This document shows, in pieces, positions 17,590 to 34,595 of a DNA stretch of 64,000 nucleotides. This stretch comes from an uncultured Candidatus Saccharibacteria bacterium (GTDB lineage: Bacteria > Patescibacteriota > Saccharimonadia > CAILAD01 > BJGX01). Location of the stretch: positions 35,347 through 99,346 of the forward strand of contig CAZKFZ010000001.1 of the NCBI GenBank assembly GCA_964552475.1. Direction: 5' to 3'. A program made the position numbers and the translations under genes. Every line of letters starts with the position of its first letter. The first letter of the stretch is position 1. Under the pieces are notes generated by a model. That model saw only the letters and a list, made by a program, of their open reading frames with translations, did no database searches and was not told the DNA's origin.

Positions 17590-17597
17590 AAAACATC

Positions 17598-19765: not shown

Positions 19766-19802
19766 TTCGTACCTAGTACATGTAGAATAAATTGTACCCA
19801 AA

Positions 19803-19834
19803 GGCCCCAACAATTGTTGGGGCCTTTTACCTAT
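19803..19834. repeat. copy 2 of the 22-nt perfect palindrome plus tail; also the likely terminator of the flotillin gene
   Basis: GGCCCCAACAATTGTTGGGGCC followed by TTTTACCTAT, 38 nt after the stop at 19765. Confidence 0.8.
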
Positions 19835-19972
19835 TTAAAATCCCAAAACACAAATATAACTATAATCTACTAGGTATAATGTAAGTTTTATAAAATCAAG
19901 ACTAAACTACCCTGGTCTATTTATAAGTAGTATAATATACATCAATACTAAAACAGTTAAGCTTTGTAAAAA

Positions 19973-20641
19973 ATGTATAATCTAATACCTAAAGAATTTC
20001 TAAGAATAATTTACTCGCAACACAGTAAAGAGTTGGGTAAAAATCTTGCTGGTATAGTGTTGTGCGGTAGTGCAGCCAACCATAGCCTAGATCGTGACTC
20101 CGATATAGACTATGTTGTGATAGTTAAAAATTTAGATAAAAATAGCTACAAAGTCTTGGCTGATTTACGGCTTGCACTAGAAAAGCAACTTGGTTTGCAG
20201 TGCAGTAATACTGTTGTTGAGTATCACTCTATTAGAGATTTAAAAAACAACTATATGTACTTAGACGGTAAAGCAGTACAAGCCTGTATTGACTCAAACG
20301 CACAAAATACTTTACTAAATAAGAGTTATGCCATACCTAAGCTAGATTCTAGTACGGTCCGAAAGTTTTCGGCTCTAGATTTTCATAAGCTAAAAGCTCT
20401 TACTATTAAACAACTAGTAAGAATGTCTAATCCAGCTAGCTACAGCGAGAGACGTAAAGTAATAAAATTAGCTTATATTTTATGTAAAGTTTATGCACAG
20501 GCTAGTACAACTACTCAAGAAAAAGAGTATATGGATAGCATTAGAGACTCACTAATGTCAATAAAAAACAATATTCGCAAATATAATGATAGTCAGCTTT
20601 TTGAGGTTATTGCTAGAATAATTTCTCTAAATCTTCACTAG
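19973..20641 (+). CDS. minimal nucleotidyltransferase (Pol-beta superfamily; KNTase/Lnu-like)
   Basis: 222 aa. LCGSAANHSLDRDSDIDYVVIV is the G[GS]-x(9-13)-D-x-[DE] nucleotidyltransferase signature. Helical C-terminal domain. Confidence 0.6.
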   Translation: MYNLIPKEFLRIIYSQHSKELGKNLAGIVLCGSAANHSLDRDSDIDYVVIVKNLDKNSYKVLADLRLALEKQLGLQCSNTVVEYHSIRDLKNNYMYLDGKAVQACIDSNAQNTLLNKSYAIPKLDSSTVRKFSALDFHKLKALTIKQLVRMSNPASYSERRKVIKLAYILCKVYAQASTTTQEKEYMDSIRDSLMSIKNNIRKYNDSQLFEVIARIISLNLH

Positions 20642-21698
20642 GCTCTATAAAAAATTTTAGTTTTTCCCATAATGACATTTGTGTATTTGCAAACAAATGA
20701 GAAAAAACAAGAGATAGTTTTTGGTCTTCAATACTCATCTTGCTTAGTATAAAAGTTGTAAGCAGGCGAAACGAAATCGCTAGACTGGCTTGATCTAAGT
20801 ATGTTTTATGGTTTGCAACACTTAGTTTATTTATGTAATACTCAACAAATTGCAAAACTAGTTCTTGCCTGCTTGAATCTATATTTACTTTAATATTATT
20901 ACTATATATAGAAAAACATTTTGGTTTGGTAGCTAGTTGTTGAGATGTTTCTTGGCTAGCCCATTTGGCATATTTTGGGCCAAAATAATTGCCGGCAAAT
21001 AAAGTATGCCATAAAAATGTAGCTATGTCGGTAGCAATATGATTAAACCCAGCACCCTCAAAATCAACTATCGCGCCGCTGGTAAAAATATTGCGCTCGT
21101 GTAAGTCTCCTTGAGAGGGAACACAAATACCCAAACTAAAATCCTGAACTCCAGTGGCGATGTTTGTAAAAAAATCCGACTCCAATTTGGTTTTATAATT
21201 GCCAATACTAGGTAGATAGTTATGAATATTGCTACTAAGTAAACTTTTTAACTCAGGCTTAAAAAGTCTAGGCAATCTATCTAAATAAAATAGCTGAGTA
21301 CCACCATTAGAGTTGGTTTTAGACCAATTGGTGTTGGCGATAGTAGCTAGCTCTTGCCACAGTGAACTTAAGTCTGGAGTTTGGCCTAGCGAGAGGGCAT
21401 CGCCAACAGTAGTGCTATTGGCGCCTACGTTTTGGTAGTGAATTTCTAAACCATCTTTGTTTATTGAGAGACGGTTTGGGATGTTTTTATAGTAATGGCT
21501 AATAAAATCGTAGCCATTTAGCTCTAAATTGAACTGCTTGGCAGAATCAAAACGTTTTGTCACCGTGGGCTGGTGACTGTTATTAAATTTGTTAGGCTTT
21601 ACACGAAGCATAATAAATAGTATAATATCGCATAATTTAACAATTATCAATATGGCTAAGACAATAATCGAAATTTCCGGTCCAGATTTTGTAGGCAA
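20613..21698 (-). CDS. APH/choline-kinase-family phosphotransferase
   Basis: Brenner motif GDLHERNIF (HGDLHxxN) and IVDFEGAGFNHIATDIA (DFE...D). The first Met gives 361 aa and overlaps the divergent kinase gene. The internal Met at 21611 (MLRVKP) gives 333 aa with no overlap and is the more likely start. Confidence 0.6.
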   Translation of the reverse strand: MPTKSGPEISIIVLAILIIVKLCDIILFIMLRVKPNKFNNSHQPTVTKRFDSAKQFNLELNGYDFISHYYKNIPNRLSINKDGLEIHYQNVGANSTTVGDALSLGQTPDLSSLWQELATIANTNWSKTNSNGGTQLFYLDRLPRLFKPELKSLLSSNIHNYLPSIGNYKTKLESDFFTNIATGVQDFSLGICVPSQGDLHERNIFTSGAIVDFEGAGFNHIATDIATFLWHTLFAGNYFGPKYAKWASQETSQQLATKPKCFSIYSNNIKVNIDSSRQELVLQFVEYYINKLSVANHKTYLDQASLAISFRLLTTFILSKMSIEDQKLSLVFSHLFANTQMSLWEKLKFFIEPSEDLEKLF

Positions 21699-22872
21699 AT
21701 CTACACAGGCCGAATTACTTACCTATGAGACCCAAGCTTTGCATGTACATAACTTCGGCTCTTTAGCTGGCTATTCTAAAAAAATGCCAGATAGTTTGAG
21801 CCCGCAAGAATTTTTTAAATGGTGGTTTGAAAAGAGTAGTTTTAATGAGCTTTGCAGTGCGCTAATAGATGCCTACAATAACAGGCTGGCTACCATAGAG
21901 AAAGCAGAAAATCTAGATATTGCAGTAGTAGAGAGAGGGCGAGATATGTTGCGAGCGCAACTAGTTGCAACCTTTTTAACCCGTGAAAACAAGAACACAA
22001 AAGACACAGTAGCACTAGAAAAAATTACCACAGCAGTTGAAAATAAGATCGCAAAATATATGGTAGATGTGCCTCGTGACAGTAGAGTAGAGATATTTTT
22101 AAAACCTTGCAAACCGTGGCAGAGTGAAATAGAGTGTTACCACAAAGTTTTACGATCGGCTCGTAGTGAAGGATCGAGTTTTAGCGGGAGCCAAAACAAG
22201 CTATATGCTAACTATCAAAAAAACTTAAGTACTGTTTTAGAGCTTCAAACAGAGAGTAATTCATCTATATTAGTTGATTGCCCGGCTGTTGATGTGCAAA
22301 ACGTTATTCGCGCACAAGTAAGGAAACATAATATACCACCGCTTTTTGCTAATAATCCGGTAATTGTTGGTTTGGCAGGCTTAAGCGAAACTGGCAAGGG
22401 CGCAGTAGCTCAGTTTTTGCAAGATAACTTTGCCTTTACCAGGCTTAAGATTGGTTTTTTTAACGAACACTCTCGCGACCATCAAAAAGCCTACGCCAAA
22501 CCATCAAAAACCGCGCTTACAATTACCCATTTTTTAGCAACCAATAGGCATATACAAAGAGCGACACTAGAGAGTTTGCACGGCACCGATATTAGCATAG
22601 CTCTTAAGCTAATATTAGGTGAACGTTGGGTGCCAACTCTACTGACGTCGCCAGATACTTTAAGAGTCCAGCGAAATAATAGCCAATTTACCAATACAGA
22701 CCCTACTAAGCTCAGACGTGATCAACAAAATAAAGACAAAACTAAGCTCAAGCAAGGATTGGCCGAGTATCAAGAGCATGCCGATATTGTAGTAGACAAC
22801 TCTGGTACAATAAAACAGACAGCTAACAAAATAGTAAAACATATAGGGCAAAAACGTGATAGAACCAAATAA
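21652..22872 (+). CDS. two-domain P-loop kinase (thymidylate-kinase-like N-terminal domain)
   Basis: IIEISGPDFVGKSTQAELL is a Walker A in Tmk-like context, with a VVERGRD lid-like segment. The second half has another Gly-rich loop (GLAGLSETGKGA). The ORF track starts at 21589; the start at 21652 (MAKTII) is preferred because it removes the overlap with the divergent gene. Confidence 0.5.
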   Translation: MAKTIIEISGPDFVGKSTQAELLTYETQALHVHNFGSLAGYSKKMPDSLSPQEFFKWWFEKSSFNELCSALIDAYNNRLATIEKAENLDIAVVERGRDMLRAQLVATFLTRENKNTKDTVALEKITTAVENKIAKYMVDVPRDSRVEIFLKPCKPWQSEIECYHKVLRSARSEGSSFSGSQNKLYANYQKNLSTVLELQTESNSSILVDCPAVDVQNVIRAQVRKHNIPPLFANNPVIVGLAGLSETGKGAVAQFLQDNFAFTRLKIGFFNEHSRDHQKAYAKPSKTALTITHFLATNRHIQRATLESLHGTDISIALKLILGERWVPTLLTSPDTLRVQRNNSQFTNTDPTKLRRDQQNKDKTKLKQGLAEYQEHADIVVDNSGTIKQTANKIVKHIGQKRDRTK

Positions 22873-23377
22873 CGAACCAAGAGAATTAGAATCGGGTGTT
22901 CAGCCACCTCCAGAGCCACTACTTAGATTGCAGGAAAAGTATGCCTTTATGCCCAGCCCTATTACTGAGAGACCCAAAAGATGCCGAGCGATTATATATA
23001 ATCAAACAGGTGATAAGGTTCTGGGTATAAATCGCGTCCGTCCTGGTAGAGACCCTTATGTGGTGTACCCTGGCGGCGGCTTAGAAGAATCAGACCAAAA
23101 AGCTGTTGATGGTATTTGGCGAGAGTTACAAGAAGAGCTTGGGATAAGTAGAGATGATATTATCCTAACTGGCTCAGTTATTGAGCTAGAAGGTGAGTTT
23201 TTTTACTTGGGCTATGAACGCCATAAAATAGTAAATCTAACTATTGGTGGTCCTGAGGCCGAGCGTGACACGGCGGTTTCGGGTAGTTATGAGCCAGCTT
23301 GGCACAACACCACCTCTCTAATAGTGGATAATATGTTTCCGTCTGAAATAAGCGAGAGAATTGAAGAAACTGCTTAA
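22856..23377 (+). CDS. Nudix hydrolase
   Basis: 173 aa. PGGGLEESDQKAVDGIWRELQEELGI is a complete Nudix box (Gx5Ex7REUxEExGU). Confidence 0.75.
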   Translation: MIEPNNEPRELESGVQPPPEPLLRLQEKYAFMPSPITERPKRCRAIIYNQTGDKVLGINRVRPGRDPYVVYPGGGLEESDQKAVDGIWRELQEELGISRDDIILTGSVIELEGEFFYLGYERHKIVNLTIGGPEAERDTAVSGSYEPAWHNTTSLIVDNMFPSEISERIEETA

Positions 23378-23387
23378 ATATAGCGTT

Positions 23388-23609
23388 TTATTCTACGGTA
23401 TCTTCAGATTCAACATGAGAAGATGATACGTGACTTTCGTCTTTAACCACATAAGCAACTATTAGTGCTAGTGGAAAGAAGAACAAACTAAAGACAAAGT
23501 ACCCCCAAAAACTGTGACCTTTACGACCAGCGACTCGGGCAGGCCAAAATGCAATAGCTATCCAAATAATACCGGCTATCACCCAATAAATTGCCTGAAA
23601 AAGACCCAT
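23388..23609 (-). CDS. small membrane protein (hypothetical)
   Basis: 73 aa with two TM helices. Confidence 0.45.
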   Translation of the reverse strand: MGLFQAIYWVIAGIIWIAIAFWPARVAGRKGHSFWGYFVFSLFFFPLALIVAYVVKDESHVSSSHVESEDTVE

Positions 23610-23701
23610 AATGTACTCCTAACCTATTAAATTATTACTACTATATTATACCATAAAGATATATCTACAACCTTAACACTCACTTAAACCAAAATTAAAA
23701 C

Positions 23702-23732
23702 AGCCTATCACCATCTATGAAGGTGATAGGCT
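23702..23732 (-). terminator. rho-independent terminator for the 23761-24228 gene
   Basis: AGCCTATCACC-atctatgaa-GGTGATAGGCT, perfect 11-bp stem. On the minus strand it is followed by GTTTTAATTTT. It shares its arm sequence with the 4901-4936 terminator. Confidence 0.6.
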
Positions 23733-23760
23733 TATTAAGTTTTAGTTAGCTTCCTTAAGC

Positions 23761-24228
23761 TTAGACGCGCTCTAGAAGGCTACAAACTCTCTCTTGTGAT
23801 GTCTGGTGCACTACACAGAGGCCGTAAAGAACCGAGACGAACGGGCGAGATACTGGGGTGTCAACCCTTAGCTTGTTGCCAGGGTTGAAATCGGTAAGTG
23901 GTCGCTCATAGCCATTGCCGTAGTTTGCGCGAATACGTTGTCTATAGCACTCGCTACCCACCATCTTCATAGTAGTTACCTGTACGCCATTTCGCACCCA
24001 GAATCGCACATTGGCTTGACAATACATTCCGCCATTATATACTCTGAACTTATAAAAAGGCGTATCGTAGGCGATCCTTTCCACGTGCTGGCCAGCCTGC
24101 ACTTCTGGTACAGACGACAAGCTTTCGTCTGCAGAGGTTTGTGCACTAGCCGACGGGCTAGGCAAGTTTGGTGCTAGTGTAAGCACCAGCGCCAAGGCTG
24201 TAAACAACAAAACACTCTTTGCTCGCAT
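23761..24228 (-). CDS. secreted hypothetical protein
   Basis: 155 aa. Signal peptide (LLFTALALVLTLAPNLPSPSASA), Cys-containing mature domain. Confidence 0.5.
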   Translation of the reverse strand: MRAKSVLLFTALALVLTLAPNLPSPSASAQTSADESLSSVPEVQAGQHVERIAYDTPFYKFRVYNGGMYCQANVRFWVRNGVQVTTMKMVGSECYRQRIRANYGNGYERPLTDFNPGNKLRVDTPVSRPFVSVLYGLCVVHQTSQERVCSLLERV

Positions 24229-24329
24229 TTCGTTACCTTTTTGGTAGGGGGCAATATTTTAGGTGCCACTTAACCCAGATATTTTAGCTTAAAACTCATT
24301 AATAGTCAAGTAAAATTCAAGCAAGTGGA

Positions 24330-24980
24330 TTAGCGCAAACTGCGCGACAACAATCGAGTAAGTAAAGGCATAGCAAAGAACAACATAAATGCTGCCTGAC
24401 CAATAAATATTGATCCCCCCACAACTAGTAGCGAGGTAACTACTGCGGCGGTGTTGCGGGCTTTGTTGTAGGCAATATCTTTATCGGTAAGGCTTTCGTC
24501 AAAACTAAAGTCGGTAGAGAGTGCATAGCGCCATTGCCAAGCACTCACAATCGTAATTAGTGCATAATTAATAGGCAGTAGCATTCTACCCAGCACCAAA
24601 CCACTGTAATTACCGGCTATGCTTGCTGTAAGAGGCATAAAAACTACCAACAGTAACCTGAAAGTATTAATAGCGACTAAGTGCATATCTACTTGTTTTA
24701 TTTTTTCAAACTGGCGCAAATGTACAGACCAGGCACTACCAAGCATTAAAAAACTCACCACAAAACTTACAAGCATTGTGGAGTTATTGGTAATGTTTTG
24801 CCAGAGCTGTGTGCTGGTGTTGGCGTTGCCAAATTCACCAAATTTGAGGCCCAAAACCAAGAGAGTCATAGCAATTGCAAATACACCGTCTGATAGTGCC
24901 TCTACTCTGCGTGTAGAATAAAATTGATTAGAGTTGGTGTCTTTTTTTACCATTAGTATTATTGTAACAATGTTTGGCAA
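24330..24980 (-). CDS. TMEM175/DUF1211-family membrane protein (putative K+ channel)
   Basis: 216 aa. RRVEALSDGVFAIAMTLLVLGLK matches the RxxxFSDGVFAIAxTLLV signature helix of the family, with 5-6 further TM segments. Confidence 0.65.
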   Translation of the reverse strand: MPNIVTIILMVKKDTNSNQFYSTRRVEALSDGVFAIAMTLLVLGLKFGEFGNANTSTQLWQNITNNSTMLVSFVVSFLMLGSAWSVHLRQFEKIKQVDMHLVAINTFRLLLVVFMPLTASIAGNYSGLVLGRMLLPINYALITIVSAWQWRYALSTDFSFDESLTDKDIAYNKARNTAAVVTSLLVVGGSIFIGQAAFMLFFAMPLLTRLLSRSLR

Positions 24981-25077
24981 TATTTGGCAGTATCACAGCA
25001 GGTACTTGCTAAAAGTGCATATTTATAGTATATTATTGTTGATTTTTTGATGCTTTCAAATTTGAAAGGTTTTAAAA

Positions 25078-25548
25078 GTGGACTATACCACAATATCAAG
25101 AAAAAGAACCTTACAGCAAAAGATGCGACGCATTCATTGGGGCATTAGCCGAGCCAAGAACAAAATTTTTGCAAACCTAAACGGATATTTTTGGATACCT
25201 TGTCCTATTTGTGGTACCCCTTTTGGTGGGCACGAATGGCAGAATGGTCAATCTATGAAACTCAAAGAAGGTAGCCAGACAAATCAGGGAATTTGCCCAC
25301 CATGTTCGTGGGAGTTGGGCGAAGAGTCTGCCCAGATTTGCGATGAGCTTGGGCACATGTTGGTGTCGTCTTGGAGCCCAGCCCAAAACCCAAGAGTTGA
25401 TGATGACGGCATTATGCATATTGTAATTGAATTTGATACGAGTAGAACGCCAGACCGAGTAATGTGTAGTCGTTGTTTTCGCTATTTTGACCCAGTTACC
25501 AATCAACCCTTACCTAGAAGTCTAAAAATCACTAGTTACAACAAGTAG
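25078..25548 (+). CDS. Cys-rich (zinc-ribbon-like) hypothetical protein
   Basis: 156 aa. CPICG...H, CPPCSWELGEE and CSRCFRY pairs. Terminator immediately downstream. Confidence 0.45.
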   Translation: MDYTTISRKRTLQQKMRRIHWGISRAKNKIFANLNGYFWIPCPICGTPFGGHEWQNGQSMKLKEGSQTNQGICPPCSWELGEESAQICDELGHMLVSSWSPAQNPRVDDDGIMHIVIEFDTSRTPDRVMCSRCFRYFDPVTNQPLPRSLKITSYNK

Positions 25549-25551
25549 CTT

Positions 25552-25580
25552 CAACCCCAGTTTGTCTGGGGTTTTTATTT
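25552..25580 (+). terminator. rho-independent terminator
   Basis: AACCCCAG-tttgt-CTGGGGTT followed by TTTATTTT, 4 nt after the stop. Confidence 0.7.
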
Positions 25581-25651
25581 TATTTATTCTTTTAAAAAGA
25601 GTATGATAGTACTTAAGTTTATATTAAAAGAATTAAAGATAGGTTTTAATT

Positions 25652-26155
25652 ATGGCAAAGAGAAAAAATAGTAACATTGGCAGTAAAATATCATCACTCG
25701 TACTACCTAGTATGTTTATATTGGCCTGGGTGTTTGCATTTAGTGGTATGTCGGCGCCAGGAGCAGTTTTGGGTGAGGGAGCGAATGTTAGTTATCTCAA
25801 GTGGATACTTTACTTTGCTGGCTGGGTGTTTTTGTTCTCTAGCATTATGCATTCGGTTTTTGCCAAGAAAATGGCTGCAAGTATTGGCTGGAAAACTAAT
25901 GGCTTTCAATACGAAATTGCTTTTGTAAGCCTAGGCTTGGCGCTTGGTTGTTTTTACGCTGTTTATTACGGGGTAGTAGAGGCTTGGGTAGCTATTAGTC
26001 TACCCGTAATATCATTCTTGTTTTTGGCTGGAGTTAATCACCTAATAGAAATTATTCGTAATAAAAACTATGCACCCAATAACACCCTAATACTAGTTTG
26101 GGATTTTGGTGTGCCACTCTCGCTAGTATTTTTATTACTATCGGTTGTTAAATAA
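25652..26155 (+). CDS. integral membrane protein (hypothetical)
   Basis: 167 aa, 5 TM helices. Its stop is 3 nt before the GTG of the next gene. Confidence 0.5.
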   Translation: MAKRKNSNIGSKISSLVLPSMFILAWVFAFSGMSAPGAVLGEGANVSYLKWILYFAGWVFLFSSIMHSVFAKKMAASIGWKTNGFQYEIAFVSLGLALGCFYAVYYGVVEAWVAISLPVISFLFLAGVNHLIEIIRNKNYAPNNTLILVWDFGVPLSLVFLLLSVVK

Positions 26156-26158
26156 TTT

Positions 26159-27154
26159 GTGGAACTTGTAGACGTACTAGATGAAAGTGGCAAGCCCACT
26201 GGCCAAAAAGCAACCATAGACGAGGTGTGTGACCAAGGTTATTGGCATAGCTCGGTTCACGCCATTATTATTACCAGCGATAATAAAATTGTGGCGCAAA
26301 AACGATCGCGTGAAATTATAATGAACCCCAATCTTATAGAATTATCAGCCGGAGGGGTAGTAAGCGCCGGTGAAAAGCCCGATCAAGCTATTAGGCGAGA
26401 AATAAAAGAGGAACTTGGTATCGATGTATTGGCTAGCGAAGTAATACCAATAAATATAAGAACCTATAATAAACACTACCCCAGACTCAATAAAACTGCT
26501 AAAACATTTTTACACACCTATGTAATAAAATTACAAAAACCAATTGCTCACACCCATTTACAGTCTAGTGAGTCAGCCCAGATTTACTTTTTGACGTTAC
26601 GAAATACTAAAAGACTAGTCAAACTCCATCGTTTAGTAAGAGTAGGTAGAGTTACGCCCTTTTATACCTATTGGAACTTCTCGTTAAATGAAGCCATTAA
26701 ATATATTCACCCAATTGTGCATTTTGTGTGTCGCGGTAATACTTTTAGAAGCCGTTTGGCAGAAGCTTATTTTAATAAAGTAAAAAGTGAGCGAATTAAG
26801 GTAATATCTAGTGGAATACAGGCTAGTGAAAACCAAAATGGGCACATAAGCTACTTGGGTAAATATATACTTAAAAAGCATCATTATAAAAACTACAAAA
26901 AAAGCTGGACCCAAACTACTCAAGCAAACATTGATGCCTCTACGATAGTTATTTTTGTCTCACCTACGGTATTTACTGACGCTCAAGATATGTTCGATTT
27001 GAGCGCCACGAAGTATCAAGTGTGGAGTATACCAGACGTACGCCAAGGTGAATACGCAAATAGCGAGGCCAAGGCAGAGGAAGTGTATAAGATGTTGGTT
27101 GGTAATATTAATAAACTAAAAGATCAAAGAGAGTTTAAGCATTTTCTACTATAA
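26159..27154 (+). CDS. fusion protein: N-terminal Nudix hydrolase plus C-terminal low-molecular-weight phosphotyrosine-phosphatase/ArsC-like domain
   Basis: 331 aa. Nudix box AGGVVSAGEKPDQAIRREIKEELGI. The C-terminal domain carries the P-loop VCRGNTFRSRLAEAYF (C-x5-R, LMW-PTP CxGNxCRS-like) and a downstream SIPDV acid-loop candidate. Confidence 0.65.
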   Translation: MELVDVLDESGKPTGQKATIDEVCDQGYWHSSVHAIIITSDNKIVAQKRSREIIMNPNLIELSAGGVVSAGEKPDQAIRREIKEELGIDVLASEVIPINIRTYNKHYPRLNKTAKTFLHTYVIKLQKPIAHTHLQSSESAQIYFLTLRNTKRLVKLHRLVRVGRVTPFYTYWNFSLNEAIKYIHPIVHFVCRGNTFRSRLAEAYFNKVKSERIKVISSGIQASENQNGHISYLGKYILKKHHYKNYKKSWTQTTQANIDASTIVIFVSPTVFTDAQDMFDLSATKYQVWSIPDVRQGEYANSEAKAEEVYKMLVGNINKLKDQREFKHFLL

Positions 27155-27183
27155 CTAGTAACTCAATAGTATTTTAATGACAC

Positions 27184-28809
27184 CTAGTATCTTATACTAC
27201 TGTATCTGATACCGCTTTCTTTTGGTGGTGTACTGGTGCTATCTACCACCATCCTACTGGCTACATTGTTAAAGACATCGTCAATGACAGCCCAATCCTT
27301 AACTTGACTGCGTGCTAAGTAAGCAATACCAGTTTTAGTACGTGTGCCGCTCCATTTGTTCTTTTTAAATAATATATTTTTTATCTCATACCCTGGCTCA
27401 AGAGTAGGGCGATCTTTTGCATACTTGTCGCCGAGAATAGCCAATTGCTGTACTTGCTCGTTTAGTATGAATGAATTATTTTCAATCCAGAAATTATTTG
27501 CTCTAAAAGACTGAGCCGTGTTGTCTGTGTATGAGTTACTTCGTATTTCAAGTACGGCATTTCTATTGTTACCACCTACAACCGTCATATTTGAGTTGTG
27601 TAGACGCACACTTCTTGCATCACCAACCGAGAAAAGAGCAACCTTTCTATATGATCCACTATCGTTGATATTTATATTATTAAACCCAATATCAACTGAG
27701 CGCTCACCAATATCAACCGGCCAAACTTCATTTAGATTACAACTTGAAGGATTTGCACAACCTTTTGGTATGTAACGTAAATTTATATTCTTAAATGAAC
27801 TTTGAGAAGAGGCCATTTTTATCTCTATAGCACGTCCGGTATACGTAGCATTAATATCAGAAAAAATATTTTTTACTAAGGCGTTCATGGCCATGGGTGT
27901 TACAATATTTTCAAAATCTACTTGCTTAACAAAACAGGCGTAACAAAGACTGCCACCTAGACCAGCCTCGCCACCACGAAAAGTGATACCACTTATTTCT
28001 ACCCACTGAGCAGCTTGCCATGGAATATCTTTACCCATAACATAGCTCCAGAATGGACTTCTTCCTTCTACTTTGCAAATCTGTGGGTTTGGAATAGCAT
28101 TAAGTGCTTTGTCGGCAAACTCTATTTTATTGCCATTAATAGCACGTATTTTATTAAACTGAACAAAGTCTGGTTGCTCGTAATCTCCTACTTTAAAACC
28201 TACCTCAGATCTGATACACGCTATCTCGCCAACAGCTAGCTTGCTAGCTTCATTGCTATTTTTTAGATTGAGTGATGTTGAATCTTTTGCCCAGCTAGTT
28301 TGGGCAACCGCTATATTGGTAAATACTTGATTTCTACCTTGTGCGTCGGTCGCATTTCGCTCATCAAATGCCCACGGGTGCGCTACCCCTAAAAGAATAT
28401 GGGTCATTTTATTTCGTCCATCTGGAGTATTAGGGGCAACATTTACAATAACAGATTGACCACGGGTACCTCTGAACTGCACAAACGACTTCATAATTAA
28501 TGGCCTTGTAATATTATAGGTACCTGGCGGCAATGTAAGTTCTTGGGAGCGGTTAGCGGCTGTGCCCGAGGCCGATACTGTGTCTATTGCTGTTTGTAAA
28601 GCCTCAGTATCGTCGGTAACACCGTTACCTACCGCCCCAAACTCCTTAACAGATCTCGGTGGAGCACTGGCGTTAGTTACAAAAAATACTAGAATGCCCA
28701 AAACAACAACAGTTCCTACTACAAACAAAATTTGCCAAGTCTTGAAACTAAAATTTCTTATAGTGGTTTTTTTATTGGTTCTCTTAGTTCTTTTTTTAGG
28801 CATAATCAC
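27184..28809 (-). CDS. secreted right-handed beta-helix protein (pectate-lyase-superfamily / tailspike-like glycosidase)
   Basis: 541 aa. Basic N-terminus plus TM/signal. VKEFGAVGNGVTDDTEALQTAIDT is the hallmark start of Pectate_lyase_3/GH28-like beta-helix domains. Confidence 0.65.
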   Translation of the reverse strand: MIMPKKRTKRTNKKTTIRNFSFKTWQILFVVGTVVVLGILVFFVTNASAPPRSVKEFGAVGNGVTDDTEALQTAIDTVSASGTAANRSQELTLPPGTYNITRPLIMKSFVQFRGTRGQSVIVNVAPNTPDGRNKMTHILLGVAHPWAFDERNATDAQGRNQVFTNIAVAQTSWAKDSTSLNLKNSNEASKLAVGEIACIRSEVGFKVGDYEQPDFVQFNKIRAINGNKIEFADKALNAIPNPQICKVEGRSPFWSYVMGKDIPWQAAQWVEISGITFRGGEAGLGGSLCYACFVKQVDFENIVTPMAMNALVKNIFSDINATYTGRAIEIKMASSQSSFKNINLRYIPKGCANPSSCNLNEVWPVDIGERSVDIGFNNININDSGSYRKVALFSVGDARSVRLHNSNMTVVGGNNRNAVLEIRSNSYTDNTAQSFRANNFWIENNSFILNEQVQQLAILGDKYAKDRPTLEPGYEIKNILFKKNKWSGTRTKTGIAYLARSQVKDWAVIDDVFNNVASRMVVDSTSTPPKESGIRYSSIRY

Positions 28810-28918
28810 TAGTTTAAGTGTTAGCGTTCTTAAACACTATTGTAGACCAATATATTCACAAGCACAAGTAGTATCGACAAAATAGGGTATAATAGAAGTA
28901 ATAAAAAAGGAGATATTT

Positions 28919-29173
28919 ATGGCCAATAAATCGCAGCGCACCGAAGAATTTAAGGTAAACGGTGAAGACCTACTTAAAAAAGTAAAAAATCTTATTGCCG
29001 AAGGAAATATTAGACGTATTACTATTCGCAACAAAGAAGGGAAAAGTATAGTAGAGCTTCCCCTTACAGTTGGTGTGGTAGGGGCAGTATTGGCGCCCCC
29101 ACTAGCTGCAGTAGGAGCTATTGCTGCTTTAGTAACAGAGTGCACAATTGTTGTGGAGAGAGAAGGTAAATAA
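28919..29173 (+). CDS. DUF4342 domain protein
   Basis: 84 aa. FKVNGEDLLKKVKNLIAEGNIRRITIRNKEGKSIVELPLTVGVVGAVLAPPLAAVGAIAALVTECTIVVER matches DUF4342 throughout. GGAG RBS. Confidence 0.7.
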   Translation: MANKSQRTEEFKVNGEDLLKKVKNLIAEGNIRRITIRNKEGKSIVELPLTVGVVGAVLAPPLAAVGAIAALVTECTIVVEREGK

Positions 29174-29184
29174 ATAAGTTTAGA

Positions 29185-29688
29185 ATGAAGCGGTCGGGGA
29201 AAAATACCAATTCGTCAAAAATCGTCGCTATATTTGTAGTGATTGTAATAATTTTTGCTATTTTTATTGCTTTGGCTATTGGTAGTTTTGTGTTGAGGTA
29301 CTACTCAAGCCCAGCTCTTAGAGATCAACAAAAAGTTACCACCGAAGTCGCTCTAGACATTGAGACCTATCCAGATTCCTATACTTCGTCGGGGTTGCCA
29401 CAATACCCAAATGCTAAACTTACTAATTTAAGCAAAAAAAACTCCACAGCAAAGGATGGTGTAAGTGTATTGCTATACTCTAATGATGCTCCGGCAGTTG
29501 TTGCCAAATATTATGACGAACAGCTAAAATCATTAGGTTGGAGTATGGCAGGATACACTAGTAAATACACAGACATGCCTTATTCACAAGAGTATAAAAA
29601 AGGCGATGAGTCGTTTATTGTCTTGGTTAACTCCTCAGACACTGGTGATTATAAAACTGCAATTTCAATAACCTGGAAAATATTCTAA
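29185..29688 (+). CDS. membrane-anchored hypothetical protein
   Basis: 167 aa. N-terminal TM, extracytoplasmic domain. Confidence 0.5.
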   Translation: MKRSGKNTNSSKIVAIFVVIVIIFAIFIALAIGSFVLRYYSSPALRDQQKVTTEVALDIETYPDSYTSSGLPQYPNAKLTNLSKKNSTAKDGVSVLLYSNDAPAVVAKYYDEQLKSLGWSMAGYTSKYTDMPYSQEYKKGDESFIVLVNSSDTGDYKTAISITWKIF

Positions 29689-29700
29689 TAAAAGGTAGTA

Positions 29701-30528
29701 ATGAGCTTATTTGGTAATTTTGGTGTTCAAACTATAAAGTGGTTGAAATCTATATTCAAGCCACGGCATTTACTTAACATTAAAATTATTGAAGGCCCTG
29801 GTGAGCCAATTGTTTTTTTACATGGCTTAGCGAGCAATATCGAGTTTTGGAATAATGTTGTAGAACCACTAAGAGGTCGGCACAAGATGGTGCTTGTAGA
29901 TTTGCTGGGTTTTGGTGCATCGCCTCGTCCTACCGATAGTGAATATACGGTAGATGATCATGTAGATGCTATTGTGCATACACTTAAAAAAGCGCACATA
30001 TGGCAAAGGTCTATAATAGTGTCGCATTCAATGGGAGGAATTATTGCAGCACGTTTCGCAGTTCGTTTTCCAGACAAAGTGAAAAATATGCTACTTTGCA
30101 GTATTCCAATTTATAAGCGATCTGAGCTTAACGATAAAAAACTTCTACAATGGCAGAGTACATCTGACGAGCTATACTTTAAAGCTTATAGAAAGTTACG
30201 AGCCAACCCAGACTGGGCCATTAAAGGCTCTGATATGCTGAAAAAACTAAATATTAAAGGTATGGATGTAACCACAGAAAGTTGGCCGGCTTTTCATGAG
30301 AGCCTACATAACACTATTGAGAAACAACGTACTAGTACTGATCTTGCAGGCCTTCACATCCCTATCAAAATTATTTACGGTAGATTTGACGTTTTGGTAG
30401 TGAGTCGTAATATTACAGCTTTGAGTAAAAACCACGCCAATATAACTGTTCGAAAAATTAATGCTGGCCACGAGCTAACACCAGGATTTAGTAAAATAAT
30501 TGTGGGTGAAATAGAAAAAATCATTTAA
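29701..30528 (+). CDS. alpha/beta hydrolase
   Basis: 275 aa. VFLHGL...VSHSMGG (GxSxG). C-terminal GHEL region typical of the fold. Confidence 0.7.
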   Translation: MSLFGNFGVQTIKWLKSIFKPRHLLNIKIIEGPGEPIVFLHGLASNIEFWNNVVEPLRGRHKMVLVDLLGFGASPRPTDSEYTVDDHVDAIVHTLKKAHIWQRSIIVSHSMGGIIAARFAVRFPDKVKNMLLCSIPIYKRSELNDKKLLQWQSTSDELYFKAYRKLRANPDWAIKGSDMLKKLNIKGMDVTTESWPAFHESLHNTIEKQRTSTDLAGLHIPIKIIYGRFDVLVVSRNITALSKNHANITVRKINAGHELTPGFSKIIVGEIEKII

Positions 30529-30542
30529 GCTATAATGTATAT

Positions 30543-32120
30543 ATGATTACACTAAGCAAATCTGAATATATAATGTATCTTAAGCATCCGGCGTGGTTGT
30601 GGCTAAAAAAACATGACAAAAAAATGTTGCCAGAAGTTGACGACAACCTACAGGCGCGTTTTGATGCCGGTAATTTGTTTGAAGAGTATGCCGAGAAACG
30701 TTTCAAAGATGTTTTACGAGTTGGTTTTAATGGCTATCAAGAATATTCGAGTATGCCCGAGCGTACCCAAAAGGCTCTCAAAGATGGCGCCAAAACACTA
30801 TCTCAAGGTAGATTTGAGGCTAATTTTGCTGGTGAGCAGATTACTTGTATTGTAGACATTGTTGAGTTGGTGGGGGATAAAACCTTCGATTTGTATGAGA
30901 TAAAATCTAGCACCAAAGTAAAGCCCGAACATATTGACGACCTGGCTTTTCAGGTAGTTGTGCTAGAGAGCGCCGGTTACAGCGTGAGAAATATTGGTGT
31001 AGTTTATTGCAATAACCAATATGTGCGTAGTGGCGCGCTAGATGAGCTCTCGCTGAGCGTAAAACAAGATGTAACTAGCAAGGTAGAACAAAAGCTTGAG
31101 TCTACCAAACGTAATATTGAGGCCGCACTAACGGTAGTTGGGGCTAGCGACATGCCAGACCCTACGCCTCGTCGCACCAAGATGGGGGCTATTAAAGACT
31201 GGTTAGAAATATATTTAGCCCTTAGACCCACTCAAGATAAATACTCTATTTACAATCTATGCTCGGCCGCGGCCGAACAATTGGGGCAACTAGAAGATTT
31301 GCATATTAGTAGTATTGCCGATATTCCAGATAATTTTGCTCTAAAACCCAAACAAAAAAGACAAGTAGAAGCTACCAAGCAAGCCAGCCCAATCGTAAAT
31401 ATTGCTAAAATTAAAAAATTTATAAATTCTTTGCAGTATCCATTGTACTTTTTAGACTACGAAACCCTCAGCTCTATCGTGCCGCCCTTTGATGGGCTCA
31501 AGCCGTTTGATCAACTACCCTTTCAGTACTCACTACACATTATACAAGAGCCAGGCGGCGATTTGTTGCACAAAGAGTTTTTGCATACACTCGCTACCAA
31601 CCCAGTACCAGAGCTGCTACAACAATTGCAAGCCGACATTGGTGAGTCTGGCACAGTTTTGGTATGGTGGGAGGGCTTTGAGAAGAGCTGTAATGAGCTA
31701 ATGGGTAAACTTATGCCCGAGCACCTTACTTTTTTAGAAGATGTTAATAGTCGAGTAATTGACTTAATGAAACCATTTAGTGAAGGTTACTATATAGATC
31801 GCGATTTTATGGGCTCGGCTAGTATCAAAAATGTTCTGCCAGTAATTGCGCCCGAACTAAGCTACAAAGACCTAGACATACAAGAGGGTGGCTCGGCCCA
31901 AAGACTATGGATGCAAGCCGTTTACGAAGATAAGTTCGACCAATCAGAGAAAGCAAAGCTAATGGAGAGCTTACGGCAGTATTGCGAGCTAGACACCTAC
32001 GCAATGGTACGAATTTTTGAGTTTTTAGTTGCCTTAGATGTTGGTGGTACTAAACCTAGAGGTGACTCTAGTGTAGGTCAAGTTACTAATCAAGATTTTG
32101 AACAACAACAGCTCTTTTAG
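30543..32120 (+). CDS. DUF2779-family protein (PD-(D/E)xK nuclease-like N-terminus plus C-terminal domain)
   Basis: 525 aa. LSKSEYIMYLKHPAWLWL start, DIVELVGDKTFDLYEIKSS (D...EIK nuclease-like motif), and C-terminal YPLYFLDYETLSSIVPPFDGLKPFDQLPFQYSLHI, all characteristic of DUF2779. Confidence 0.5.
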   Translation: MITLSKSEYIMYLKHPAWLWLKKHDKKMLPEVDDNLQARFDAGNLFEEYAEKRFKDVLRVGFNGYQEYSSMPERTQKALKDGAKTLSQGRFEANFAGEQITCIVDIVELVGDKTFDLYEIKSSTKVKPEHIDDLAFQVVVLESAGYSVRNIGVVYCNNQYVRSGALDELSLSVKQDVTSKVEQKLESTKRNIEAALTVVGASDMPDPTPRRTKMGAIKDWLEIYLALRPTQDKYSIYNLCSAAAEQLGQLEDLHISSIADIPDNFALKPKQKRQVEATKQASPIVNIAKIKKFINSLQYPLYFLDYETLSSIVPPFDGLKPFDQLPFQYSLHIIQEPGGDLLHKEFLHTLATNPVPELLQQLQADIGESGTVLVWWEGFEKSCNELMGKLMPEHLTFLEDVNSRVIDLMKPFSEGYYIDRDFMGSASIKNVLPVIAPELSYKDLDIQEGGSAQRLWMQAVYEDKFDQSEKAKLMESLRQYCELDTYAMVRIFEFLVALDVGGTKPRGDSSVGQVTNQDFEQQQLF

Positions 32121-32205
32121 TATTTAAAACACTACGTAAGCAAAATGAATTAAAACTATTGTAAACTTATGCGAGTTGTGACATAATAATAAGCAATTAG
32201 TAACG

Positions 32206-32240
32206 CAAGCGCGATATAATTGTCGCGCTGTTATTTTTTA
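32206..32240 (+). promoter_or_regulatory. palindromic element upstream of typA (terminator of the upstream gene, or operator overlapping a -10-like box)
   Basis: AGCGCG-atataattgt-CGCGCT followed by GTTATTTTTT. The loop contains a TATAAT. Confidence 0.35.
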
Positions 32241-32247
32241 GATTATT

Positions 32248-34074
32248 ATGAGTGACCAGACCCAAGACCCTCAAAAAATACGCAATATCGCCATTATTGC
32301 TCACGTAGACCATGGAAAAACCACCTTGGTAGATGGGTTATTAAAGCAATCGCAAACTTTTAGAGACAACCAAGCCGAAATGAGCCAAAGTCTCATAATG
32401 GACAGTGGCGACCAAGAGCGCGAGCGTGGCATTACTATTACTGCTAAAACTACTGCAGTGGTTCACGATCGCTATAGAATAAACATCATCGATACGCCTG
32501 GCCACGCTGATTTTAGTGGCGAGGTAGAACGTACCCTAAATATGGCCGACGGTTGTTTGCTAATAGTCGATGCCCAAGAAGGACCAATGCCACAAACCAA
32601 GTTTGTATTGCAAAAGGCTTTAGTGGGTAATCTTAAACCCATAGTAGTAATTAATAAAATAGATAAGCCAGGTAGTAGAGTAGCTGAGGTAGAAGAAGAG
32701 CTTGCCGACTTATTTCTAGAACTTGCCGTGCACGAAGATCAACTGCATTACCCTGTGTATTATGCTATAAGTCGTGAGGGTAAGGCTTGGCATGAGATCC
32801 CTAGTGACGTTAACACAGAGGCCAATTTAGATGTGTTATTTGATGCTATTGTAGAGCAGGTGCCAGCCCCAAAAGTAGAGTTAGATGGGCCTTTTCAAAT
32901 GCTTGTAACAGCACTGCGCTGGGATAACTTCAAAGGGAAATATGCTATTGGTAGAGTAAATAGGGGTAGCGTAAAGCCAGGTGAGGGAGTTGTGCTGTGT
33001 AAAAAAGACGGTTCGAAAACCAAAACTAGCATCGACAATGTATTTATAAGTAGAGGTCTTACCAGTGTAGAAGCCAAGGTCGCAATTGCTGGTGATATTG
33101 TACAGCTTACAGGTGTAGCCGATGCTCAAATTGGCGAAACTATTGCCGATATTAATAAACCCCAAGCTCTGCCAGTGCTAGAGGTAGAAGCCCCAACTCT
33201 CAAAATATATATAGGCCCCAACACTAGCCCTGTAAAAGGCACAGAAGGCGAGTTTACTACGTCACGCCAAATAGGCGATAGGCTACAAAAAGAACTCGAA
33301 ACCAATGTGGGCTTGCAAATAGAGCCAAGCGATATTGGGTATTTGGTGAGCGGTAGGGGCGAGCTGCACCTAAGCGTGCTTATTGAATCGCTAAGACGAG
33401 AAGGATTTGAGTTAGAGGTGGGTCGCCCGCAAGTGGTAACCAAACAAGAAGACGGCAAAACTATGGAGCCTGTAGAGGAGCTGATTATTGAAGTTCCGCC
33501 AGAAAATGTGGGTACAGTTCAAATGGAGTTGGGTACCCGTAGAGCCACACTAAAAGAACAATTTAGTAGCTCAAAAGGCGTATCAAAACTCGTGTACGAA
33601 CTACCTACTCGCGCGCTTCTTGGTCTGCGTAATGTACTAATGACTACCACTAAAGGTGCTGCGGTAATAAATAGTCTAATGATAGGTTACACCGAGCAGA
33701 CACCGGCACTCAAACAACTACGTAATGGTGCGCTTATATCTTTTGAGGCCGGTAGCGCCACAGCTTACTCACTACAAAAAGTAGAGGAGCGTGGTACATG
33801 TTTTGTAGAGCCAGGCCAAAAAGTCTATGCTGGGCAAATAATTGGTCTTAATAACCGCAGTGAAGATATGGAAATTAACATCTGTAAGGGTAAACAACTA
33901 ACCAATATGCGTACTAGCTCTAGTGACGGAGTGGTACAACTTATGCCAGCGGTAAAAATGAGCTTAGAGGAATGTATTGATTTTATAGAAGACGATGAAC
34001 TTTTAGAGGTCACACCAAAGTCGTTACGACTACGTAAGCGCGAACTCGACCCCAACAAGCGCAAACGCAAATAG
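32248..34074 (+). CDS. typA: translational GTPase TypA/BipA
   Basis: 608 aa. [20 protein letters not shown] (G1), DTPGHADF (G3), NKIDKP (G4). Collinear with BipA over its whole length. Confidence 0.9.
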
Positions 34075-34158
34075 TAATTATATATATTCTTATGCTTGAG
34101 TTTTACAGGAGTTTAGTTTAAAGTTGGTTTGTCTATATTAATTATCGGAAGGCTACCG

Positions 34159-34557
34159 ATGAGCAGTGACGACGTAGTAAAAGTTTGGGACAATACTGGT
34201 GGCGAGAGTCCAGACGAAAAACCACATAACTGGAGTCACGCAAAGACCCCTTGGCCAACTGGTCCATTTGACGGAATAGAGTACCTTTTTCCACCTGATG
34301 ACCCAAGGAGTAGGATACTTTTACGTGCAAAACAAAGAATGGACCTTGGCGATAAAGGTAGATGGGTGTTAGTAGAAGAGTTTGAAATTACTGCGATTCT
34401 GAATCTTAGGATTTGTCGTAGTTCTCATACATTTGCTCCAGCAGAATTAGATCTAACACATGACTTTACTGCATACTGTGTATTGCAAGCTGGTCACGCC
34501 GGTCATCATAGTAACGGCACTCTACGTTGGAGACCCCAACTGATTGTAGTCACTTAA
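34159..34557 (+). CDS. hypothetical protein
   Basis: The ORF track gives 34129-34557. The start at 34159 (MSSDDVV) is preferred because a GGAAGG RBS sits 6 nt upstream. No recognisable domain. Confidence 0.4.
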   Translation: MSSDDVVKVWDNTGGESPDEKPHNWSHAKTPWPTGPFDGIEYLFPPDDPRSRILLRAKQRMDLGDKGRWVLVEEFEITAILNLRICRSSHTFAPAELDLTHDFTAYCVLQAGHAGHHSNGTLRWRPQLIVVT

Positions 34558-34568
34558 GTTATAAACAG

Positions 34569-34595
34569 CTTACCACTTCGGTAGGCTCTTTTAAT
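34569..34595 (+). terminator. rho-independent terminator
   Basis: AGCTTACC-acttc-GGTAGGCT (one G-U pair) followed by CTTTT. Confidence 0.5.

What the first reader, a model, noticed from the sequence alone, without database searches (positions are those of the whole stretch)
26159..27154. Nudix hydrolase fused to a low-molecular-weight PTP/ArsC-like phosphatase domain
One polypeptide combines an intact Nudix box with a C-x5-R P-loop (VCRGNTFRSRLAEAYF) of the LMW phosphatase fold. A pyrophosphohydrolase plus a phosphatase in cis suggests sequential processing of a nucleotide-linked substrate, such as removing a nucleotide cap and then the remaining phosphate, or ADP-ribose-phosphate turnover. 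The gene is tightly linked to a 5-TM membrane protein upstream (3-nt gap, GTG start). A second standalone Nudix lies 3 kb upstream.
Basis: seen in the sequence. Interest (0 to 1): 0.55.

Follow-up and report, generated by a model that had tools for sequence, protein, structure and literature searches.

The report
Nudix–LMW phosphatase fusion of Saccharibacteria
The gene really does encode one protein joining a Nudix pyrophosphatase to a small cysteine phosphatase, both apparently active; it is the rarer, reversed-order form of an unstudied two-domain protein common in Saccharibacteria, probably removing phosphates from a nucleotide-type molecule in two steps.

Summary
Observation confirmed. 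ORF 26159..27154 (+, GTG, 331 aa) passes Pfam cut-offs for NUDIX (res 30-144) and LMWPc (res 187-281). It has a canonical Nudix box, a C-x5-R-S loop (C191/R197/S198) and a conserved Asp (D293). It is not an assembly artefact: the same architecture occurs in 26 proteins at 39-100% identity from independent assemblies, and dN/dS is about 0.08 in each domain. An exhaustive profile search showed the pair is common in Saccharibacteria in the opposite order (LMWPc->Nudix, at least 144 clusters), sitting in a housekeeping slot (rsmD-like - fusion - hisS - tig - clpP). Both sites are intact in 26/26 same-order and 120/126 permuted proteins. One Saccharimonadia lineage fuses the same Nudix subfamily to a HAD-IA phosphatase instead. 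The Nudix domain is YfcD/DR_0079-like, not an IPP isomerase. The phosphatase is nearest YwlE and is not a thioredoxin-type ArsC. The 3-nt link to the DUF6790 membrane gene is not conserved and coincides with a 3.75-kb indel. Best reading: a two-step pyrophosphatase-then-phosphatase acting on a small phosphorylated molecule, substrate unknown. Main rival: a nucleotide-modulated protein phosphatase like mycobacterial MutT1. No literature on this fusion was found. Moderate interest; new variant of a known kind.

The parts
26159..27154 (+). Whole ORF, 331 aa, GTG start: Nudix-LMWPc two-domain protein. No N-terminal hydrophobic segment, so presumably cytoplasmic.
   Evidence: 100% identical protein P0001 in NCBI/Logan; AF2 model pLDDT 87.5, pTM 0.81
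26159..26710 (+). Nudix domain, residues 1-184. YfcD/DR_0079/IDI-like subfamily, including a subfamily-specific C-terminal extension (about residues 145-184; L145, L153, H157, G163, Y169 conserved).
26351..26422 (+). Nudix box G65..I88 (GGVVSAGEKPDQAIRREIKEELGI), canonical GX5EX7REUXEEXGU.
   Evidence: read; E72/R80/E81/E84/E85 intact in 26/26 same-order and 145/146 permuted fusions
26711..27124 (+). LMW phosphatase (LMWPc) domain, residues 185-322, joined to the Nudix domain without a detectable linker.
   Evidence: Foldseek to B. subtilis ArsC 1jl3, TM (target-normalised) 0.80; profile nearest YwlE, E 1e-11
26729..26752 (+). P-loop C191-R-G-N-T-F-R197-S198 (C-x5-R-S), the nucleophile Cys and phosphate-binding Arg.
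   Evidence: read; invariant in 26/26 same-order fusions
27035..27037 (+). Codon GAC for D293, candidate general-acid Asp (W289-S-I-P-D293-V).
   Evidence: invariant; aligns to the residue just before the conserved Pro of 1y1l (WHIENP); equivalence to ArsC Asp105 is inferred
25652..26155 (+). Upstream neighbour: DUF6790 membrane protein, 167 aa, stop 3 nt before the GTG. Probably co-transcribed here, but not a conserved partner.
   Evidence: context comparison; indel junction

Best explanation
The ORF encodes a cytoplasmic bifunctional hydrolase. Residues 1-184 are a YfcD/DR_0079-type Nudix pyrophosphohydrolase with a canonical metal-binding Nudix box. Residues 185-322 are a low-molecular-weight cysteine phosphatase with nucleophile C191, phosphate-binding R197/S198 and acid D293. 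Shown here: both domains and all catalytic motifs are present and under equal purifying selection, and the pairing recurs in both orders across Saccharibacteria. Inferred: the two activities act in sequence on one small molecule. The Nudix domain would cut a diphosphate linkage (a nucleoside di- or triphosphate or an NDP-X compound) to leave a phosphomonoester. The phosphatase domain would then remove the remaining phosphate through a phospho-cysteine intermediate, giving the unphosphorylated product plus Pi. The most likely substrate class is a (deoxy)nucleoside di/triphosphate taken to the nucleoside, for nucleotide house-cleaning or salvage in an organism with a reduced genome. This is a weak guess that rests only on DR_0079 being the nearest characterised Nudix relative.
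For: Domain calls above curated cut-offs. Confident two-domain model, pLDDT 87.5 and pTM 0.81, with essentially no linker. Catalytic residues intact in 26/26 Nudix->LMWPc and 120/126 LMWPc->Nudix proteins. dN/dS 0.084 in each domain against the 86% relative. Both domain orders exist, and unbootstrapped NJ trees place them in separate clades with a third small group among standalone proteins, suggesting more than one fusion event. The same Nudix subfamily is fused to a HAD-IA hydrolase, a fold typical of small-molecule phosphatases, in a Ca. Saccharimonadia MAG seen in two assemblies. The same LMWPc subfamily is fused to a NudE/AdpP-like Nudix in P0172. The permuted form sits in a conserved housekeeping slot next to rsmD-like, hisS, tig and clpP, which fits a core metabolic role. 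Nearest solved Nudix relatives are YfcD (E 4e-18) and DR_0079 (E 5e-13); DR_0079 is described as a pyrimidine nucleoside di/triphosphate pyrophosphatase (PMC5389931).
Against: No biochemical data exist for any member, and no literature on the fusion was found. The nearest solved relatives of the phosphatase domain are YwlE protein-arginine phosphatases, not small-molecule phosphatases. The one characterised Nudix+phosphatase fusion, MutT1, uses its phosphatase domain on proteins. Five of 126 permuted proteins have lost the Cys or Asp while keeping the Nudix box, and several more divergent ones have no recognisable P-loop, so the phosphatase step is dispensable in some lineages. No split Nudix + LMWPc gene pairs were found next to each other in about 60 standalone-Nudix and 4 standalone-LMWPc loci. 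The HAD-Nudix fusion is a single lineage. I could not obtain model coordinates, so the relative position of the two active sites is unknown.
Confidence: 0.45

Rival explanations
1. A nucleotide-modulated protein phosphatase. The LMWPc domain would dephosphorylate phospho-proteins (pArg, pTyr or similar). The Nudix domain would either sanitise nucleotides independently or sense a nucleotide and tune the phosphatase, as reported for mycobacterial MutT1.
For: The LMWPc subfamily profile is nearest to YwlE arginine phosphatases (E 1e-11), ahead of LMW-PTPs and ArsC. [quoted passage not shown] The window protein has Thr at the P-loop position that, from my own knowledge of Fuhrmann et al. 2013, favours pArg in YwlE.
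Against: That P-loop position varies freely among homologues (T/I/V/A/K/E/L/M/S/R). The residues after the acid Asp, which from my own knowledge form the aromatic walls of the phospho-amino-acid pocket in LMW-PTPs (DPYY) and YwlE (DPFG), are not conserved here. A HAD-IA domain replaces LMWPc in one lineage. No kinase partner is seen in any neighbourhood.
Confidence: 0.2
2. The LMWPc domain is mainly a phosphate-binding or structural accessory of the Nudix enzyme, holding an extra phosphate on the Nudix substrate. Any phosphatase chemistry would be secondary.
For: Some permuted relatives keep an intact Nudix box but have lost the nucleophile Cys or the whole P-loop (P0081, P0094, P0106, P0109, P0119, P0282, P0304). 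The high pTM suggests a fixed interface. The MutT1 paper cites earlier work in which the C-terminal domain contributes structurally to an N-terminal-domain activity.
Against: C191, R197, S198 and D293 are invariant in all 26 same-order proteins and in 95% of complete permuted ones. The LMWPc domain has dN/dS as low as the Nudix domain. Conservation of the nucleophile Cys and acid Asp is not needed for binding alone.
Confidence: 0.12
3. Two unrelated activities that merely share a polypeptide for co-expression, with no shared substrate.
For: No conserved operon partners or split gene pairs tie the two families together outside the fusions. Nudix domains are fused to many things, for example the tandem Nudix and HTH-Nudix proteins.
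Against: The same two narrow subfamilies are joined in both orders. A phosphatase of another fold is fused to the same Nudix subfamily. There is no linker and the inter-domain model is confident.
Confidence: 0.15
4. An arsenate reductase (ArsC) domain fused to a Nudix protein, for arsenic detoxification.
For: Weak sequence and good fold similarity to ArsC.
Against: The domain has no cysteine other than C191, so the resolving Cys pair of thioredoxin-type ArsC is absent (read). NCBIfam ArsC models score 22-25 bits against cut-offs of 157-215. No ars genes appear in any neighbourhood. A single-Cys, thiol-cofactor-dependent reductase cannot be formally excluded.
Confidence: 0.03

Closest known systems
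Mycobacterial MutT1 (Nudix N-terminal domain + SixA-like RHG histidine-phosphatase C-terminal domain)
   Same: One polypeptide with an N-terminal Nudix hydrolase and a C-terminal phosphatase; both sites are catalytically competent (PMC12407098).
   Different: The phosphatase fold is unrelated: histidine-phosphatase RHG motif against a Cys-based C-x5-R LMWPc. The Nudix subfamily differs: MutT-like against YfcD/DR_0079-like. MutT1's phosphatase acts on phospho-proteins. There is no sequence relationship beyond the Nudix fold.
E. coli YfcD (PDB 2fkb) and D. radiodurans DR_0079 (1q27/2o5f), IDI-like clade of Nudix hydrolases
   Same: Best sequence and fold matches to residues 1-184: profile E 4e-18 and 5e-13; Foldseek target-normalised TM 0.70-0.74. 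They share the N-terminal beta-hairpin and the KRS...P...GG lead-in to the Nudix box.
   Different: They are single-domain proteins. The NCBIfam YfcD equivalog scores 41 bits against a cut-off of 152. The family here has its own C-terminal extension (H157, G163, Y169). I found no defined YfcD substrate in the searched literature.
YwlE protein-arginine phosphatase / LMW-PTP / ArsC superfamily (Pfam PF01451)
   Same: C-x5-R-S P-loop, SSG motif (SAG in relatives), a conserved Asp on the following loop, same fold.
   Different: Phe or Tyr replaces the second P-loop Cys. An extra Arg follows R-S (RSR). A WTQTT motif replaces the His/Arg region. The Asp is followed by V/I/L, not Pro. No aromatic pocket residues and no resolving cysteines. 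It forms its own subfamily, with standalone members in Levyibacteriota, Uhrbacteria and a Bacteroidetes MAG.
LMWPc->Nudix proteins of Candidatus Saccharimonadales (auto-annotated by JGI as 'protein-tyrosine-phosphatase/8-oxo-dGTP pyrophosphatase MutT', by NCBI as 'NUDIX domain-containing protein')
   Same: The same two domain subfamilies and the same catalytic residues, in the same bacterial class.
   Different: Opposite domain order, only 30-34% identity, and a different genomic slot (rsmD-like/hisS against TMEM175/DUF6790/pectate-lyase-like block).
Type 1 isopentenyl-diphosphate isomerase (the label some databases give to family members)
   Same: Related Nudix-type fold; weak HMM similarity.
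   Different: The IDI catalytic Cys aligns to Ala64 and the SHP His is absent (alignment with 2pny). A full hydrolase-type REx2EE box is present. IDI models score 15-30 bits against cut-offs of 106-127. The IDI label is a misannotation.

Membership tests
Nudix hydrolase superfamily (PF00293) | Score above Pfam gathering cut-off | tested here: met
   44 bits against 21.1
Nudix hydrolase superfamily (PF00293) | Nudix box GX5EX7REUXEEXGU with the metal-binding Glu residues | tested here: met
   G65..I88 read; E72, R80, E81, E84, E85 invariant
Nudix hydrolase superfamily (PF00293) | Nudix alpha/beta/alpha fold | tested here: met
   AF2 model matches 2fkb, 2o5f, 1hx3, 3r03 and others at probability 1.00
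Nudix hydrolase superfamily (PF00293) | Mg/Mn-dependent pyrophosphohydrolase activity | not testable with these tools
   needs an enzyme assay
YfcD equivalog (NCBIfam NF011922) | Score above curated cut-off | tested here: not met
   41 bits against 152; related subfamily only
Type 1 IPP isomerase | Catalytic Cys (TxxC-x-HP motif) and family HMM cut-off | tested here: not met
   Cys position is Ala64 in the alignment with 2pny; NF002995 29.9 bits against 127 and TIGR02150 15.4 against 105.8
LMW phosphatase / ArsC superfamily (PF01451) | Score above Pfam gathering cut-off | tested here: met
   31.8 bits against 23.2
LMW phosphatase / ArsC superfamily (PF01451) | C-x5-R-(S/T) P-loop at the N-terminus of the domain | tested here: met
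   C191-RGNTF-R197-S198; invariant in 26/26
LMW phosphatase / ArsC superfamily (PF01451) | General-acid Asp on the loop after the last strand (D-P motif) | tested here: inconclusive
   D293 is invariant and aligns to the residue before the conserved Pro of 1y1l. It is followed by Val, not Pro. Equivalence to ArsC Asp105 rests on the W-x3-D register recalled from memory.
LMW phosphatase / ArsC superfamily (PF01451) | Rossmann-like LMW-PTP fold | tested here: met
   Foldseek 1jl3_A target-normalised TM 0.80, 1jf8 0.76
Thioredoxin-coupled ArsC (pI258 type) | Resolving cysteine pair (Cys82/Cys89) and family HMM cut-off | tested here: not met
   no Cys other than C191 in residues 185-331; TIGR02691 22.9 bits against 174.3
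YwlE-type protein arginine phosphatase | Conserved P-loop Thr (C-x-G-N-T-C-R-S) and activity on phospho-arginine | tested here: inconclusive
   Thr195 is present in the window protein but the column varies among homologues. YwlE is the nearest solved relative at profile level. Activity is not testable here.
MutT1-type Nudix + histidine phosphatase | C-terminal RHG histidine-phosphatase domain | tested here: not met
   the C-terminal domain is LMWPc; only an analogy in architecture
Anti-phage defence systems (PADLOC) | Match to a defence-system protein model with system context | tested here: not met
   only a generic Nudix-domain match to candidate PDC-S07 over residues 32-110, no partner genes; the permuted form lies in a housekeeping block

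The most novel reading that the evidence does not exclude
The LMW cysteine-phosphatase fold, known for protein phosphatases and arsenate reductases, here acts as the second step of a dedicated small-molecule pathway. A Saccharibacteria-wide, near-core enzyme would strip a nucleotide or nucleotide-linked cofactor down to its unphosphorylated form in two coupled steps, with the phosphatase module exchangeable (LMWPc in either position, or HAD). If that reaction is part of how these epibionts process nucleotides or cofactors taken from their hosts, it would fill a gap in the metabolism of an uncultivated-majority phylum.
Probability: 0.3. Interest if true: 0.6.

Novelty: new variant of a known kind. 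Interest (0 to 1): 0.4.

Why it matters
Saccharibacteria have very small genomes, so a two-domain enzyme kept in most of them, in a housekeeping gene block and under strong purifying selection, probably does something they depend on. Its function is nonetheless unknown, and some public labels are wrong (isopentenyl-diphosphate isomerase) or generic. The architecture gives a directly testable biochemical hypothesis: pyrophosphatase followed by phosphatase. The natural variants provide built-in controls: reversed order, a HAD replacement, and dead P-loops. If the phosphatase acts on a small molecule, that would extend the known chemistry of the LMW-PTP/ArsC fold. If it acts on proteins, it would be a second, convergent example of the MutT1 design. 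On present evidence it is a solid but not startling lead.

Tried and rejected
1. DUF6790 as a functional partner: rejected. The adjacency is not conserved, and the junction coincides with a 3.75-kb indel relative to the 86% relative.
2. Arsenate reductase: rejected. There are no resolving cysteines, the scores are far below cut-offs, and there are no ars genes.
3. IPP isomerase, a database label for some members: rejected. The catalytic Cys is absent and a hydrolase-type Nudix box is present.
4. Anti-phage defence: only a generic Nudix match in PADLOC.
5. Misassembly or frameshift: rejected by many independent full-length homologues and by dN/dS.
6. Search for split gene pairs (standalone Nudix next to standalone LMWPc): none in the loci fetched.
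7. Metagenome scan for more HAD-Nudix fusions: only HAD relatives, with no Nudix of this subfamily in 80 loci and 2634 ORFs. The fusion itself was then confirmed in two NCBI assemblies.
8. The genome-collection scan used a generic Nudix-box pattern and mostly returned ordinary Nudix genes.
9. The AlphaFold-database fold library was unavailable, and model coordinates could not be read, so the active-site geometry was not assessed.
10. Literature: no paper combines Nudix with LMWPc; Saccharibacteria + Nudix gave nothing relevant; I found no defined substrate for YfcD.
11. The window holds no tRNA or Rfam RNA. It lacks the recG/rsmD/hisS/tig block, so I could not test whether the reversed gene displaces the common one.

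Full report
**1. The observation**

The window has an uninterrupted ORF at 26159..27154 (+), 331 aa, starting with GTG. Pfam places a NUDIX domain at residues 30-144 (44 bits, cut-off 21.1) and an LMWPc domain at residues 187-281 (31.8 bits, cut-off 23.2). Read directly from the sequence:
- G65-GVVSAGEKPDQAIRREIKEELG-I88 is a canonical Nudix box.
- VCRGNTFRSRLAEAYF (residues 190-205) holds a C-x5-R-S loop (C191, R197, S198).

The upstream ORF 25652..26155 stops 3 nt before the GTG and is a DUF6790 membrane protein. A standalone Nudix ORF lies at 22856..23377. Every factual element of the finding is therefore correct.

**2. It is a real gene under selection, not an artefact**

- A word-indexed search of 5.8 billion proteins found the identical protein and about 20 clusters with the same order at 39-86% identity. 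They come from NCBI, JGI, ENA and Logan assemblies, and the named ones are Saccharibacteria or Patescibacteria.
- Their N-termini (MELVDVLD) support the GTG start.
- Against the 86% relative, dN/dS is 0.084 in the Nudix part and 0.084 in the LMWPc part.
- AlphaFold2 on a 21-sequence alignment gives pLDDT 87.5 and pTM 0.81. The Nudix domain ends in a helix at residue 183 and the first strand of the phosphatase starts at 186, so there is essentially no linker.

**3. The wider family changes the picture**

Two hits in the first search carried the same domains in the opposite order. An exhaustive HMMER search of 1.84 billion cluster representatives, using the family profile, gave 66 hits below 1e-30:
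- five representatives with Nudix->LMWPc;
- about 35 with LMWPc->Nudix;
- standalone Nudix proteins of 185-197 aa that include the same C-terminal extension;
- standalone LMWPc proteins of 140-160 aa.

A further search with an alignment of the permuted proteins returned at least 144 clusters at 90% identity. The named ones are Candidatus Saccharimonadales. JGI already labels them 'protein-tyrosine-phosphatase/8-oxo-dGTP pyrophosphatase MutT', and NCBI labels them 'NUDIX domain-containing protein'. The window gene is therefore the rarer, reversed arrangement of a common Saccharibacteria protein.

The permuted form sits in a conserved housekeeping block across members only 40-65% identical: recG, a 264-aa ORF, an rsmD-like methyltransferase, the fusion, hisS, tig, clpP. 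The window does not include that block and has no second copy of either domain.

**4. Active sites**

I aligned 172 fused proteins to domain HMMs.
- All 26 same-order proteins keep C191, G193, N194, R197, S198, D293 and E72, R80, E81, E84, E85.
- Among 126 permuted proteins with a complete LMWPc domain, 120 keep both sets, five have lost the Cys or Asp but keep the Nudix box, and one has lost both.
- A few more divergent representatives have no recognisable P-loop.

So both chemistries are normally maintained, but the phosphatase can be lost.

**5. Which subfamilies**

Nudix domain:
- Best matches are YfcD (2fkb; profile E 4e-18), DR_0079 (E 5e-13) and then IPP isomerases.
- It fails every NCBIfam equivalog cut-off.
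- It is not an isomerase. In the alignment with human IDI2 the catalytic Cys falls on Ala64 and the adjacent His is missing, while the hydrolase-type REx2EE box is complete.
- DR_0079 is described as a pyrimidine nucleoside di/triphosphate pyrophosphatase (PMC5389931).
- I found no defined substrate for YfcD.

Phosphatase domain:
- It belongs to a distinct LMWPc subfamily with motifs HFVCxGNT[FY]RSRLAE, SSG, WTQTT and WxIxD.
- At profile level it is nearest to YwlE arginine phosphatases (E 1e-11), then LMW-PTPs and ArsC.
- By fold it superposes on ArsC (target-normalised TM 0.80).
- It has no cysteine other than C191, so it cannot be a thioredoxin-type ArsC.
- D293 aligns to the residue before the conserved Pro in 1y1l. 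Its equivalence to the ArsC/LMW-PTP acid Asp is inferred from that register.

**6. Evidence bearing on mechanism**

For sequential action on one small molecule:
- The same two narrow subfamilies are fused in both orders. Unbootstrapped NJ trees put the window clade, the main permuted clade and a third small group (P0061, P0070, P0063) in different places among standalone proteins, which hints at more than one fusion event.
- P0096 (HSX02985.1, Ca. Saccharimonadia) fuses the same Nudix subfamily, extension included, to an N-terminal HAD-IA hydrolase. It is present in two NCBI assemblies.
- P0172 fuses the same LMWPc subfamily to a NudE/AdpP-like Nudix, although those NCBIfam matches are below the curated cut-offs.

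Recurrent pairing of a pyrophosphatase with phosphatases of unrelated folds is what a two-step dephosphorylation would predict.

Against, or for the rivals:
- The closest solved phosphatase relatives act on proteins.
- In mycobacterial MutT1, the one studied Nudix+phosphatase fusion, the phosphatase domain dephosphorylates sensor kinases. [quoted passage not shown]
- Some lineages have dead P-loops.
- No adjacent split gene pairs were found.
- The HAD fusion is a single lineage, and a metagenome scan found no more.

**7. Gene neighbourhood**

- DUF6790 is directly upstream only in the window and in the P0008 lineage.
- In the 86% relative a P-type ATPase and a small ORF lie in between.
- In the P0003, P0007 and P0015 lineages, and around all permuted genes seen, DUF6790 is absent.
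- DNA alignment shows the window matching the relative up to the DUF6790 stop (26154) and again from codon 2 of the fusion (26162). A 3.75-kb segment is missing in between.

The genes around the fusion form a loosely syntenic lineage block rather than an operon: TMEM175, DUF6790, pectate-lyase-like, DUF4342, AF_1845, an alpha/beta hydrolase and DUF2779.

**8. Verdict**

A bifunctional enzyme with both sites active is very likely. Sequential small-molecule processing is the best-supported mechanism (about 0.45) but is untested, and the substrate is unknown. A MutT1-like protein phosphatase is the main rival (about 0.2).

No paper on this fusion was found in the searchable library, although pipelines already give it two-part names. 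I rate it a new variant of a known kind (Nudix + phosphatase bifunctional proteins), of moderate interest.

Noticed in passing
window 22856..23377 (+): The standalone Nudix has a non-canonical box, G-GLEES-D-QKAVDGIW-RE-LQ-EE-L-G-I, that is GX5DX8REX2EEXGU. This is the elongated Asp variant that PMC5389931 describes for the NUDT16/X29 snoRNA-decapping enzymes. Pfam also gives a weak Nudt16-like hit (17.3 bits, below the cut-off of 27).
   Followed up: partly
window 21589..22872 (+): A 427-aa ORF with two P-loop kinase-like modules (GPDFVGKST near the N-terminus, GLSETGKG near residue 260). Only weak AAA_18 and PRK08233 matches. Its end overlaps the start of the standalone Nudix ORF by 17 nt, which suggests a nucleotide-kinase-like/Nudix operon.
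   Followed up: partly
window 16000..20000: A GC-rich island (51% against about 40% elsewhere) holding a 697-aa SPFH/Band_7 protein (17672..19765) and a 138-aa ORF with no family match. Possibly horizontally acquired.
   Followed up: partly
window 26078..26130 vs L008 3973..4025: A 53-nt stretch at the 3' end of the DUF6790 gene is 79% identical to intergenic DNA downstream of the P-type ATPase in the 86% relative. It may mark the breakpoint of the 3.75-kb indel that brings DUF6790 and the fusion gene together.
   Followed up: no
public annotations of P0003, P0063, P0218, P0266, P0282, P0299, P0300: Members of this fusion family are labelled 'isopentenyl-diphosphate Delta-isomerase' by NCBI or JGI. 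The catalytic Cys and His of IDI are absent, so this is a misannotation.
   Followed up: yes
proteins P0128, P0136, P0118, P0132, P0121, P0161: Relatives of the same Nudix subfamily occur as tandem double or triple Nudix proteins, and as HTH_3 + double Nudix proteins.
   Followed up: no
L014 6399..8379 (Levyibacteriota contig): About 1 kb downstream of a standalone LMWPc of this subfamily lies a run of nucleotide-metabolism-type genes: a YfbR-like HD phosphohydrolase, a HIT family protein and a His_Phos_1 phosphatase. This is a weak hint of a nucleotide context for the phosphatase subfamily.
   Followed up: no
window 1..64000: No tRNA, tmRNA or Rfam family reaches threshold anywhere in the 64 kb.
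   Followed up: yes
protein P0196 (454 aa, NCBI, contig 118 kb): A more distant IDI-like Nudix fused to a C-terminal region with a weak PP2C_2 match (20.5 bits, below the cut-off of 24). This may be a third phosphatase fold joined to this kind of Nudix.
   Followed up: no
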